Positions 51,258 through 52,671 of a stretch of 64,000 nucleotides of DNA are shown piece by piece; positions within the stretch are counted from its first letter, which is position 1, and every line of letters begins with the position of its first letter. The stretch spans positions 46,176 to 110,175 of the forward strand of contig DASTFF010000026.1 of assembly GCA_035708865.1 (NCBI GenBank). Direction: 5' to 3'. The DNA is from Gemmatimonadota bacterium. Lineage in GTDB: Bacteria; Gemmatimonadota; Gemmatimonadetes; JACCXV01; JAHWKZ01. The position numbers and the translations under genes were made by a program. The notes beneath the pieces are model-generated. The model saw nothing but the letters and a program-made list of their open reading frames with translations, was not told where the DNA came from and did no database searches.

Positions 51258-52450
51258 AGCGGCTCGAGATCGGGGGCGCCACGCCCCAGCTCTCGCATCT
51301 CGGATCTTGTAAGTCCCGTCCTTCCAATACTATAGACTGCGACAACTCGACCGTTGCATGAGCCCCATGCTACGCCCTCGACGGCCAGACCCTCGACATC
51401 CCAGCTGCGGGCGCGGAGGGGCGCGCCGACGACCTGAACCGGCGTCCCGAAGAGCTCGGTGTCGTAGGAGGTGAGCTCGGCGAACTCTTTTTTCCCGCCG
51501 GTCATGTTGTTGCCCGCGACCCGGCCCTGGCGCTGGGCGTGGACCCAGTGCTCGACCCGATGGCGGAGACCGGCGATGGGGTCGGGCCAGGCGGCCACGT
51601 CCCCGGCCGTCCACAGCCCGGGCGCAGCCCGCAGCCCGGCATCGACGACGATTCCGCCGTCGGCGGCGAGCGGCGCTCCGTGCACGAAGGCGGTCTCCGG
51701 AACGACCCCGACCGCCACGACCACGAGTTCAGCGGTGAGGAGCGGGCCGGGAGATCCGCCGGGTGACCGGGTCGCGACGCGGTACCCATCCTTGTCGCGC
51801 TCGAAGCCGGTCACGGTGACCGAGGTCAGGACCCGGACGCCACCGCCTTCGAGGATCTCCTTGAGCGCGCGGCCCACCGCCTCGGGGGCCATCCGCCCGA
51901 ACAGCCACGCCTCGCACTCCACCACCGTCACCGGCAGCCCCCGGCCCGCCAGCGCGGCCCCGACCTCGACCCCGAGCAACCCCCCGCCCACCACTACCGC
52001 ACGCGACGCCTCGCGCGCGGCCCGCCGCAGCCGGAGCCCATCGTCCAGGGAGCGCAGCGTGTGGAGTCCGGGGTCGTCGCCACCGGGAACGGGAAGCCGC
52101 CGCGGACGGGCGCCGGTGGCGACCAGGCACCGCTCGTAAAGGAGGACTTCCCCGGTGTCCAGTCGGAGCCTGCGTTCTTGCGCGTCCAGCCGGACGGCGC
52201 GCCGGCCGCACCGCAGCTCGATCCCCTGCCGTTCCCAGAGCGGCAGGGGCTTCATCACGATGTCGTCGGGGGCGAGGTCGTCCCGCTTCAGGAAGTCTTT
52301 CGAGAGGAGGATGCGATTGTAGAAAGGATGCGGATCGGCGGACACGACCACGATCTGCGCCTCTCGGTCCCGGCGGCGGATCGTCTCCGAGGCCCGGACA
52401 CCGGCGGCGCCCGAACCTACGATCAGGAAGTCGATCCTGTCGGCGCTCAG
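51254..52450 (-). CDS. FAD/NAD(P)H-dependent oxidoreductase (ferredoxin-reductase-like), putative CTG start
   Basis: The Rossmann motif DFLIVGSGAAG lies upstream of the track start at 52351. A second dinucleotide site is VVVGGGLLGVE; also TAGDVA. Between the in-frame TGA (52477-52475) and the motif, the only start-like codon is CTG at 52450-52448, overlapping the upstream stop as CTGA. Confidence 0.75.
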   Translation of the reverse strand: MSADRIDFLIVGSGAAGVRASETIRRRDREAQIVVVSADPHPFYNRILLSKDFLKRDDLAPDDIVMKPLPLWERQGIELRCGRRAVRLDAQERRLRLDTGEVLLYERCLVATGARPRRLPVPGGDDPGLHTLRSLDDGLRLRRAAREASRAVVVGGGLLGVEVGAALAGRGLPVTVVECEAWLFGRMAPEAVGRALKEILEGGGVRVLTSVTVTGFERDKDGYRVATRSPGGSPGPLLTAELVVVAVGVVPETAFVHGAPLAADGGIVVDAGLRAAPGLWTAGDVAAWPDPIAGLRHRVEHWVHAQRQGRVAGNNMTGGKKEFAELTSYDTELFGTPVQVVGAPLRARSWDVEGLAVEGVAWGSCNGRVVAVYSIGRTGLTRSEMRELGRGAPDLEPL

Positions 52451-52671
52451 CGCCTCCGCAGCTCCGCGAGGACGTCATCGAACTCGGGAAACTCGCCGGT
52501 CCGCTTCTTGGAGTGGATCAGATCTCCGTCCACGTGAATCTCGAACACGCCGCCACCGCTGGGGATCAGCTCGACCTCGGCGGAGGGAATCTCACTCTCG
52601 ATGAGGGCGGCCAGACTGGTCGCCCGCGGCTCGTAGTTTCAAGCGGTGCAGTATTCGATCGTGACGTTCAT
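52447..52671 (-). CDS. SelW/SelT/SelH (Rdx) family selenoprotein; in-frame TGA read as Sec
   Basis: Not in the ORF track. ATG 52671 has AGGAGG 11 nt upstream. Translation: MNVTIEYCTAUNYEPRATSLAALIESEIPSAEVELIPSGGGVFEIHVDGDLIHSKKRTGEFPEFDDVLAELRRR. The TGA at 52641-52639 sits in the CxxU/CxxC redox motif. IEYC, RA, LIPSGGGVFEI, VDG and FPE match bacterial Rdx proteins. High GC3 continues past the TGA. Confidence 0.8.
52605..52625 (-). promoter_or_regulatory. candidate bacterial SECIS hairpin
   Basis: RNA GGGCGaCC-AGUCU-GGcCGCCC gives 7 bp with one A.C mismatch. It starts 13 nt after the UGA, and the apical loop contains GU. Confidence 0.5.

What the first reader, a model, noticed from the sequence alone, without database searches (positions are those of the whole stretch)
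52447..52671. Hidden selenoprotein gene: SelW/Rdx-like ORF with an in-frame UGA in a CxxU motif, absent from the ORF track
Reading the minus strand from ATG 52671 (AGGAGG 11 nt upstream) gives MNVTIEYCTA, then TGA, then 63 more sense codons to the TGA stop at 52449-52447.

With the TGA read as selenocysteine, the 74-aa product is MNVTIEYCTAUNYEPRATSLAALIESEIPSAEVELIPSGGGVFEIHVDGDLIHSKKRTGEFPEFDDVLAELRRR.

This matches the bacterial SelT/SelW/SelH (Rdx) pattern (IEYC-x-x-C/U, RA, LIPG-x-GG-x-FE, VDG, SK, G-x-FPE), and the TGA falls exactly at the second redox position. High third-position GC continues across and beyond the TGA. A stop-to-stop ORF finder cannot see this gene, and standard annotation would leave a roughly 250-nt gap here.
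Basis: partly seen in the sequence, partly recalled or inferred. Interest (0 to 1): 0.85.

Follow-up and report, generated by a model that had tools for sequence, protein, structure and literature searches.

The report
Unannotated SelW-like selenoprotein gene, confirmed
A 74-codon gene for a small SelW-like redox protein really is hidden here because one of its codons is a UGA that is read as selenocysteine, but this is a long-known and very common bacterial selenoprotein family, so it is a correct annotation fix and not a discovery.

Summary
On the minus strand, ATG 52671 to TGA 52447 encodes 74 codons with one in-frame TGA (52639-52641) inside a CxxU motif.

With U written as C, the product passes the curated cut-offs of Pfam Rdx (82 bits against 22.6), TIGR02174 and NF041051, the 'SelT/SelW/SelH family (seleno)protein' model.

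In 84 of 85 homologous loci from many phyla the same codon is TGA; one has TGC (Cys). The reading frame stays under purifying selection downstream.

A hairpin 13-15 nt after the UGA is conserved with compensatory changes, including at fourfold-degenerate codon positions (84% Watson-Crick against 33% expected). Its small apical loop has an invariant G. This is a bacterial SECIS.

The same window encodes selD (4006-5061). TGA is otherwise the normal stop codon here.

selA, selB and tRNA-Sec could not be checked because only 64 kb is available.

Public gene calls on 99.9%-identical contigs leave this spot empty, and relatives are deposited as C-terminal fragments.

The organism is a Gemmatimonadota bacterium.

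Bacterial SelW-like selenoproteins have been known since 2005 and are the most abundant prokaryotic selenoprotein family in ocean metagenomes. This is therefore a new member of a known kind.

The only mildly new element is a clade-specific gene order: a MerR-like protein with a CPC tail, then SelW, then a flavoprotein.

The parts
52447..52671 (-). SelW-like (Rdx family) selenoprotein gene: 74 codons plus stop. Product: MNVTIEYCTAUNYEPRATSLAALIESEIPSAEVELIPSGGGVFEIHVDGDLIHSKKRTGEFPEFDDVLAELRRR
   Evidence: sequence. (Pfam PF10262 82.1 bits against 22.6; TIGR02174 70.5 against 34.2; NF041051 91.2 against 88). (eight solved Rdx-family structures hit, E from 1.9e-11 to 1.5e-4).
52639..52641 (-). 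In-frame UGA (codon 11), read as selenocysteine; the second position of the C8-T-A-U11 redox motif
   Evidence: TGA at the homologous codon in 79 of 80 genome loci and in L001-L005, TGC in L042. It aligns with the second Cys of CxxC in 2ljk and 2fa8.
52648..52650 (-). TGC codon for Cys8, the resolving partner of Sec11 in the CxxU motif
   Evidence: Invariant in all homologues.
52605..52625 (-). Bacterial SECIS hairpin inside the coding region: 5'-GGGCGACCA-GUC-UGGCCGCCC-3'. The stem is 9 bp with one A.C mismatch, and the conserved core is 7 bp (52617-52623 paired with 52607-52613). The apical loop GUC is at 52614-52616. The stem starts 13 nt after the UGA, and the core starts 15 nt after it.
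   Evidence: fold. (81.5% of cells paired against 22-46% in slid registers; covariation 0.357 against 0.159 shuffled, 0/500). (RNAalifold predicts the inner 5 bp on its own). (synonymous-site covariation; loop G invariant).
52683..52688 (-). Shine-Dalgarno AGGAGG, 11 nt upstream of the ATG
   Evidence: read directly from the sequence.
52694..52945 (-). Upstream gene: an 83-aa MerR-type winged-HTH protein with an invariant C-terminal EDRF(F/Y)GLCPCDWR tail. Its stop lies 22 nt before the SelW ATG. It is probably co-transcribed and is a candidate regulator or partner.
   Evidence: PF13411 22 bits against 21.6. (11 of 13 orthologues hit MerR_1). (PDB profile hits to CarA-N, TipA-N, MtaN, CueR). 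(present immediately upstream of SelW in 17 related Gemmatimonadota loci; CPC invariant).
51254..52450 (-). Downstream gene: a ferredoxin-reductase-type FAD/NAD(P) flavoprotein (Pyr_redox_2). Its frame overlaps the SelW stop and its start codon is uncertain. A functional link to SelW is inferred, not shown.
   Evidence: PF07992 187 bits. (best matches are HcaD- and AndAa-type ferredoxin-NAD+ reductases, all below their equivalog cut-offs). (downstream of SelW in 13 of 17 related loci; absent in L007, L016, L017; contig end in L013 and L036). (junction analysis).
4006..5061 (-). selD, selenophosphate synthetase (Cys type, active site RCAGCASK). It supplies the selenium donor required for Sec-tRNA synthesis. 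It lies 47 kb from the selenoprotein gene.
   Evidence: lead only, from a recalled E. coli sequence. (TIGR00476 384.7 bits against 125; NF002098 349.1 against 299). (active-site residues).

Best explanation
This is a functional gene for a bacterial SelW-like (Rdx-family) selenoprotein in a Gemmatimonadota bacterium.

The mRNA carries a UGA at codon 11. A hairpin begins 13-15 nt further downstream, inside the coding sequence. It has a 7-9 bp stem and a small apical loop, G-U-Y, whose G is invariant. This hairpin is the bacterial SECIS element.

By the established bacterial mechanism, SelB bound to GTP and Sec-tRNA(Sec) binds that hairpin on the translating mRNA. It delivers selenocysteine to the UGA in competition with release factor 2. 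The selenium donor, selenophosphate, is made by the SelD encoded in the same window.

[quoted passage not shown] Cys8 and Sec11 would sit on the exposed loop after the first strand, where they can cycle between a selenol/thiol pair and a selenenylsulfide. That makes it a small thiol-selenol oxidoreductase.

Shown here: the gene, family membership, conservation of the TGA, purifying selection downstream of it, a covarying SECIS, and selD.

Inferred: SelB-dependent decoding in this organism, the fold, the redox chemistry and the physiological substrate. The substrate is unknown for the whole bacterial family.
For: - The sequence is as described.
- The product passes the curated cut-offs of PF10262, TIGR02174 and NF041051.
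- All eight solved Rdx-family structures are hit, and the TGA aligns with the second Cys of their CxxC. Their fold is described in PMC3527542.
- The codon is TGA in 84 of 85 homologous loci across Gemmatimonadota, Desulfuromonadales, Desulfobulbaceae, KSB1, Acidobacteriota, Fibrobacteraceae, Actinomycetota, Planctomycetota and others. The remaining one has TGC.
- Downstream of the TGA, synonymous differences outnumber non-synonymous ones against close relatives: 9:1 for L006, 12:4 for L002, 8:4 for L007.
- SECIS: 81.5% of cells are paired against 22-46% in slid registers. Six of nine pairs have double changes. Pair 21-33 appears as CG 37, GC 22, UA 10, UG 7, AU 2, GU 2. The covariation score is 0.357 against 0.159, with 0 of 500 shuffles reaching it.
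- At fourfold-degenerate sites alone, 84% of pairs are Watson-Crick against 33% expected, with 0 of 10,000 shuffles reaching that.
- The loop G is invariant. [quoted passage not shown]
- selD is present in the window.
- TGA is the ordinary stop codon here. Twelve of 15 family-verified genes end in TGA and none has an internal TGA.
Against: - selA, selB and tRNA-Sec were not found in the 64-kb window or in 1.2 Mb of fetched flanks, and the rest of the genome could not be searched. selB and selC, not selD, are the specific signatures of Sec decoding (PMC1273633).
- The fold energy of the 81-nt region on its own is no better than shuffles (z = 0.0), so the hairpin is supported by comparison across sequences, not by thermodynamics.
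- No Rfam family matches it.
- There is no direct evidence of expression or of selenium incorporation.
Confidence: 0.93

Rival explanations
1. Fossil or undecodable selenoprotein gene. The gene descends from a real selenoprotein gene, but this organism has lost selB and selC. It keeps selD for selenouridine or a selenium cofactor, so translation stops at codon 11.
For: selA, selB and tRNA-Sec were not seen in the available 64 kb. selD alone does not prove Sec decoding. Undecodable UGA-containing fdh genes are documented in some Yersinia strains (PMC1273633).
Against: The downstream frame, the SECIS pairing and the RBS are all intact. Synonymous changes outnumber non-synonymous ones against 93-95% identical relatives, which would not be expected for a dead gene. 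More than 30 Gemmatimonadota loci keep both the TGA and the hairpin.
Confidence: 0.04
2. The TGA is decoded as a standard amino acid (Trp, Gly or Cys). This could happen through an alternative genetic code or through near-cognate readthrough, so the protein would be full-length but would contain no selenium.
For: Two public homologues (P0003, P0005) were deposited with W at this position. Some UGA readthrough as Cys or Trp under selenium limitation is known in other systems (my own knowledge, not tested here).
Against: Twelve of 15 family-verified genes in the window terminate at TGA and none contains an internal TGA, so the code is standard. The position aligns with a catalytic Cys, not Trp. 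A covarying hairpin with an invariant loop G directly after the codon has no role in simple readthrough. The W in P0003 is a gene-caller artefact: locus L005 has TGA, and the look-up reports that the gene does not translate to the deposited protein.
Confidence: 0.02
3. Not a gene: a chance pair of short ORFs in GC-rich DNA, or a sequencing or assembly error that created the stop.
For: High-GC genomes carry many spurious long ORFs.
Against: The family HMM hit has E = 3.4e-23. The same TGA occurs in independent assemblies from different samples and phyla. The frame has a coding GC1/GC2/GC3 signature.
Confidence: 0.01

Closest known systems
Bacterial SelW-like selenoproteins (Pfam Rdx PF10262, formerly PF05169; TIGR02174 CXXU_selWTH; NCBIfam NF041051 'SelT/SelW/SelH family (seleno)protein')
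   Same: - Same family by curated HMM cut-offs.
- Same CxxU motif at the N-terminus, same size (about 75 aa), and same type of SECIS immediately after the UGA.
- Described in the Sargasso Sea (48 genes) and GOS (427 Sec forms against 56 Cys forms) selenoproteomes as the most abundant prokaryotic selenoprotein family, with unclear function (PMC1088965, PMC2398784).
- The same dominance of Sec over Cys forms is seen here: 79 of 80.
   Different: Nothing in kind. This copy comes from a Gemmatimonadota lineage, a phylum I could not find mentioned in the selenium-utilisation surveys I could search. It also sits in a clade-specific gene arrangement with a MerR-like CPC protein and a flavoprotein.
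Mammalian selenoprotein W (PDB 2NPB) and MIEN1/C17orf37 (PDB 2LJK); bacterial Cys homologues Atu0228 (2FA8), 2P0G, 2OBK, 2OJL, 2OKA, 3DEX
   Same: Detectable sequence homology (E from 1.9e-11 to 1.5e-4). The CxxC/CxxU motif is at the equivalent position. [quoted passage not shown]
   Different: Eukaryotic SelW uses a 3'-UTR SECIS and SBP2/eEFSec, whereas here the SECIS is inside the ORF (bacterial type). The solved bacterial homologues are about 105-aa Cys forms, and this protein is a 74-aa Sec form.
E. coli fdhF SECIS / SelB recoding system
   Same: A hairpin in the coding sequence just 3' of the UGA, with a small apical loop carrying a conserved G followed by U. The mechanism is inferred to be the same.
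   Different: The primary sequence and stem length differ. SelB binding was not tested. No Rfam model recognises this hairpin.

Membership tests
Rdx / SelT-SelW-SelH family (PF10262, TIGR02174, NF041051) | Score above the curated whole-protein cut-off of the family HMMs | tested here: met
   PF10262: 82.1 bits against 22.6, covering profile positions 1-73 of 74. TIGR02174: 70.5 against 34.2. NF041051 equivalog: 91.2 against 88. Tested with U written as C.
Rdx / SelT-SelW-SelH family (PF10262, TIGR02174, NF041051) | CxxC or CxxU redox motif directly after the first beta-strand | tested here: met
   C8-T-A-U11 aligns with CEPC of MIEN1 and CTQC of Atu0228. Both positions are invariant in 85 homologues.
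Rdx / SelT-SelW-SelH family (PF10262, TIGR02174, NF041051) | [quoted passage not shown] | not tested
   Inferred only from sequence homology to eight solved structures, whose fold is described in PMC3527542.
Bacterial selenoprotein gene (SelB/SECIS-dependent UGA recoding) | In-frame UGA aligned with Cys in homologues, with the reading frame conserved on both sides | tested here: met
   TGA in 84 of 85 loci and TGC in L042. Cys in the PDB homologues. Synonymous changes outnumber non-synonymous ones downstream.
Bacterial selenoprotein gene (SelB/SECIS-dependent UGA recoding) | [quoted passage not shown] | tested here: met
   The helix at alignment columns 17-25/29-37 is supported by covariation, including at fourfold-degenerate sites. 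The loop is GUC in 49 sequences and GUU in 26, and G26 is invariant.
Bacterial selenoprotein gene (SelB/SECIS-dependent UGA recoding) | Genome encodes selD | tested here: met
   Window 4006-5061 (minus strand): TIGR00476 384.7 bits against a cut-off of 125.
Bacterial selenoprotein gene (SelB/SECIS-dependent UGA recoding) | Genome encodes selA, selB and tRNA-Sec (selB and selC are the signature of the trait, PMC1273633) | not testable with these tools
   None was found in the 64-kb window or in the flanks of 85 loci.
Bacterial selenoprotein gene (SelB/SECIS-dependent UGA recoding) | Selenium is actually incorporated at the UGA | not testable with these tools
   This needs 75Se labelling or mass spectrometry.
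MerR-family transcription regulators (for the upstream 83-aa neighbour) | N-terminal winged-HTH matching the MerR HMM, plus a long dimerisation helix and a C-terminal effector site | tested here: inconclusive
   The HTH barely passes PF13411 (22.0 against 21.6), and 11 of 13 orthologues match at E of 0.1 or better. PDB profile hits to MerR-type N-domains are weak (E from 0.005 to 0.9). At 83 aa there is no room for the canonical coiled-coil. The invariant CPC tail could be a sensing site, but this is inference.

The most novel reading that the evidence does not exclude
In one Gemmatimonadota clade, the SelW-like selenoprotein forms a dedicated three-gene module with two neighbours. The first is a truncated MerR-type protein whose invariant C-terminal Cys-Pro-Cys would sense redox state or a metalloid. 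The second is a ferredoxin-reductase-type flavoprotein whose translation is coupled to SelW through a CTG that overlaps the SelW stop. The flavoprotein would be the long-sought physiological reductase of a bacterial SelW-like protein, which would give the first functional handle on the most abundant prokaryotic selenoprotein family.
Probability: 0.12. Interest if true: 0.5.

Novelty: new member of a known kind. Interest (0 to 1): 0.25.

Why it matters
The practical value is in annotation.

- The gene is invisible to ORF finders.
- Public gene calls on 99.9%-identical contigs leave a 342-nt hole where it sits.
- Close relatives are deposited as 40-55-aa fragments, or with Trp at the Sec position.

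Recognising the gene adds a selenoprotein to a Gemmatimonadota genome. Together with the selD in the window, it marks this poorly studied soil and sediment phylum as a likely selenocysteine user.

It does not change what is understood about selenoproteins. The family, its CxxU motif and its SECIS type have been known since 2005.

The conserved neighbourhood (MerR-like CPC protein, and usually a flavoprotein) is a modest lead towards the still-unknown function of bacterial SelW-like proteins.

Tried and rejected
- **ARAGORN 'tRNA-His' of 94 nt at 14783-14876.** I considered it as a possible mis-called tRNA-Sec. It lies inside an alanine-racemase-like ORF (KADAYGHG), has no Rfam tRNA support, and carries a GTG anticodon. 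Rejected.
- **tRNA-Sec search.** ARAGORN on the window plus all 85 loci held at that point (1.2 Mb) found none.
- **selA and selB search.** tblastn with E. coli sequences recalled from memory is lead-level evidence only. It gave no hits, and Pfam scans of 20 further large window ORFs found only housekeeping genes.
- **Thermodynamics of the post-UGA region.** On its own it is uninformative (z = 0.0). Only the comparative analysis shows the hairpin.
- **Rfam.** No SECIS family matched at gathering or relaxed thresholds.
- **Literature on the Sec trait in Gemmatimonadota.** I found nothing explicit in the main text or the held supplements of the 2016 survey.
- **Gene-neighbourhood clustering across phyla.** This was noisy because of antisense ORFs in GC-rich DNA. 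No neighbour is conserved beyond single clades. A second Gemmatimonadaceae clade has a gene downstream that looks like a phosphofructokinase by its motifs, which is uninformative.
- **The oxidoreductase as an obligatory partner.** This idea is weakened because the gene is absent in L007, L016 and L017, and because it is a ferredoxin-reductase type below every equivalog cut-off.

Full report
**1. The observation**

Reading the minus strand from ATG 52671 gives MNVTIEYCTA, then TGA at 52639-52641, then 63 sense codons to the TGA stop at 52447-52449. AGGAGG lies at 52683-52688, 11 nt upstream of the ATG. No ORF of 40 aa or more is listed for this strand and frame.

The codon-position GC profile is that of a coding frame on both sides of the TGA. 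GC3 is 0.80 before it and 0.86 after it, with GC2 at 0.41. The two alternative frames have non-coding profiles and 2-3 stops each.

**2. Family**

With U written as C, the 74-aa product matches three curated models above their cut-offs:

- Pfam Rdx (PF10262), end to end: E = 3.4e-23, 82.1 bits against a cut-off of 22.6.
- TIGR02174 CXXU_selWTH: 70.5 bits against 34.2.
- NF041051, the NCBIfam equivalog 'SelT/SelW/SelH family (seleno)protein': 91.2 bits against 88.

A sequence search of the PDB returns eight structures: MIEN1 2LJK, Atu0228 2FA8, 3DEX, 2OJL, 2OBK, mouse SelW 2NPB, 2OKA and 2P0G. [quoted passage not shown] In those alignments the TGA falls on the second Cys of the motif.

**3. Is the TGA conserved, and is it translated?**

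The protein database returned only six relatives. Four are 40-55-aa C-terminal fragments whose gene calls begin after the TGA position. One of these is an NCBI record named 'SelT/SelW/SelH family protein'. The other two are full-length with W at the U position.

The underlying DNA has TGA at the homologous codon in all five loci that could be read. A scan of one genome per species returned 578 relatives. Among the best 80, which span Gemmatimonadota, Desulfuromonadales, Desulfobulbaceae, KSB1, Acidobacteriota, Fibrobacteraceae, Actinomycetota, Planctomycetota, Krumholzibacteriota and others, 79 have TGA and one (L042) has TGC. All of them continue in frame to a normal stop at about codon 72-78.

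Against close relatives, codons 12-74 show more synonymous than non-synonymous differences: 9:1 for L006, 12:4 for L002 and 8:4 for L007.

TGA is otherwise a normal stop codon in this genome. Twelve of 15 family-verified genes in the window end in TGA and none contains an internal TGA. This excludes a reassigned genetic code.

**4. SECIS**

A gapless 45-nt alignment starting at the UGA (84 sequences, A2) shows a hairpin at columns 17-25 paired with 29-37. In the window this is 5'-GGGCGACCA GUC UGGCCGCCC-3', at 52625-52605.

Pair counts:

- 81.5% of cells form standard pairs, against 22-46% when the 3' arm is slid by 1 to 3 columns.
- Six of nine pairs carry double changes.
- Pair 21-33 occurs as CG 37, GC 22, UA 10, UG 7, AU 2, GU 2.
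- Pair 22-32 occurs as GC 49, UA 14, AU 3, UG 3.
- The covariation score is 0.357 against 0.159 in shuffles, and 0 of 500 shuffles reach it.

RNAalifold independently predicts the inner five pairs.

Column 21 is the third base of an invariant GCN alanine codon. I restricted the test to the 57 distinct sequences in which the partner codon is also GCN, so that both sites are fourfold degenerate. In that set, 84% of pairs are Watson-Crick against 33% expected, and 0 of 10,000 shuffles reach this. Protein-level constraint cannot produce that result, so selection acts on the RNA.

The apical loop is GUC in 49 sequences and GUU in 26, and its G is invariant. [quoted passage not shown] This hairpin meets them.

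There are three caveats:

- Relatedness inflates shuffle statistics, although the slid-register control and the variety of pair types across phyla argue against that explanation.
- The window's own fold energy is unremarkable (z = 0.0).
- No Rfam family matches the hairpin.

**5. Selenium machinery**

A lead from a recalled E. coli sequence was verified with curated models. Window 4006-5061 (minus strand) is selD: TIGR00476 scores 384.7 bits against 125, and NF002098 scores 349.1 against 299. It is a Cys-type enzyme (RCAGCASK).

selD marks selenium use in general. selB and selC are the specific signatures of Sec decoding (PMC1273633). I found no tRNA-Sec, selA or selB in the window or in the fetched flanks. 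With only 64 kb of the genome available, this says nothing either way, and it is the one open refutation test.

**6. Organism and annotation status**

The nearest loci are Gemmatimonadota MAGs, at 95% and 93% protein identity. Three Logan contigs carry the upstream gene exactly, and L086, the one I aligned, is 99.9% identical to window 42694-58267.

On all three, automated gene calling left 342 nt uncalled between the 83-aa gene and the oxidoreductase.

**7. Neighbourhood**

*Upstream gene.* An 83-aa protein is encoded immediately upstream, with its stop 22 nt before the SelW ATG. It has a weak but consistent MerR-type winged HTH and an invariant C-terminal EDRF(F/Y)GLCPCDWR tail. It precedes SelW in 17 related Gemmatimonadota loci.

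*Downstream gene.* A Pyr_redox_2 flavoprotein follows SelW. Its closest matches are ferredoxin-NAD+ reductases, all below their equivalog cut-offs. It is present in 13 of those loci and absent in L007, L016 and L017, where greA follows directly.

*Divergent genes.* A CNNM/CorC transporter and an LVIVD-repeat protein are conserved upstream on the opposite strand.

*Other clades.* Outside this clade the neighbours differ. A second Gemmatimonadaceae clade has a downstream gene that looks like a phosphofructokinase by its motifs.

The neighbourhood is therefore a clade-specific lead, not a family-wide rule.

**8. Comparison with what is known, and verdict**

Bacterial SelW-like CxxU selenoproteins were reported in 2005. 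[quoted passage not shown] NCBI has a dedicated naming model for them.

The finding is correct and well reasoned, but it is a new member of a known kind. Its value is as an annotation correction and as evidence that this Gemmatimonadota lineage probably decodes selenocysteine.

The most novel reading still open is that the MerR-like CPC protein, SelW and the flavoprotein form a functional redox module. I give that reading a probability of about 0.12.

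Noticed in passing
window 4006-5061 (-): selD (selenophosphate synthetase, Cys type) lies in the same window, next to hutU and hutI and a Rid-family gene. No selA, selB or ybbB is adjacent.
   Followed up: yes
window 52351-52477 (-); also L002-L004, L006, L008: The oxidoreductase's FAD-binding GxGxxG motif (IVGSGAAG) lies upstream of the first canonical start codon (GTG 52351), so public gene calls of 365 aa lack it. 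Between the upstream in-frame stop (52475-52477) and the motif, the window and L006 have no ATG, GTG or TTG. They have only a CTG at 52448-52450 that overlaps the SelW stop (C-TGA), an ATC, and a second CTG (TTG in L002-L004 and L008). The peptide ALSADRIDFLIVGSG is conserved with synonymous changes, so the region is translated. More distant orthologues have normal ATG or GTG starts. This suggests a non-canonical start or translational coupling to SelW.
   Followed up: partly
window 52694-52945 (-): An 83-aa MerR-like HTH protein with an invariant C-terminal Cys-Pro-Cys tail (EDRFFGLCPCDWR). It has no NCBIfam match and no precomputed Pfam annotation in public gene calls. It is always found immediately upstream of SelW in one Gemmatimonadota clade.
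   Followed up: partly
L042:5952-6170 (Desulfuromonadales MAG SMAG_U9147): This is the single Cys-form orthologue (TGC in place of TGA). It still carries the SECIS-like hairpin (GCUGCCAGUCUGGCAG), which is consistent with a recent Sec-to-Cys conversion.
   Followed up: no
P0001-P0006; L001-L005: Public records of this protein's relatives are systematically wrong. They are 40-55-aa C-terminal fragments (NCBI, JGI), or full-length sequences with Trp at the Sec position (ENA), apparently from gene calling under a code that reads TGA as Trp.
   Followed up: yes
window 14783-14876 (-): ARAGORN calls a 94-nt 'tRNA-His' here. It lies inside an alanine-racemase-like ORF (KADAYGHG motif) and has no Rfam support, so it is a false positive.
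   Followed up: yes
window 54411-55910 (-); L001:271-1677: An LVIVD-repeat / 'choice-of-anchor B' protein is conserved next to the locus. Its L001 orthologue has a faint precomputed hit to SBP56 (the selenium-binding protein family). The hit is too weak to interpret.
   Followed up: no
window 51018-51257 (+): A 79-aa Iron_traffic (PF04362, YggX-like) gene is called in the near-identical contig L086. It converges on the 3' end of the oxidoreductase and overlaps it by a few bases.
   Followed up: no
window 55907-64000 (-): A cluster of shikimate-pathway genes on the minus strand: fused aroK-aroB (57753-59375), chorismate synthase, EPSP synthase and DAHP synthase. L086 also has a type II dehydroquinase gene called in this region. 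Several of the listed ORFs have long N-terminal extensions (about 250 aa before the Pfam domain), which suggests the ORF starts are over-extended in this GC-rich DNA.
   Followed up: no
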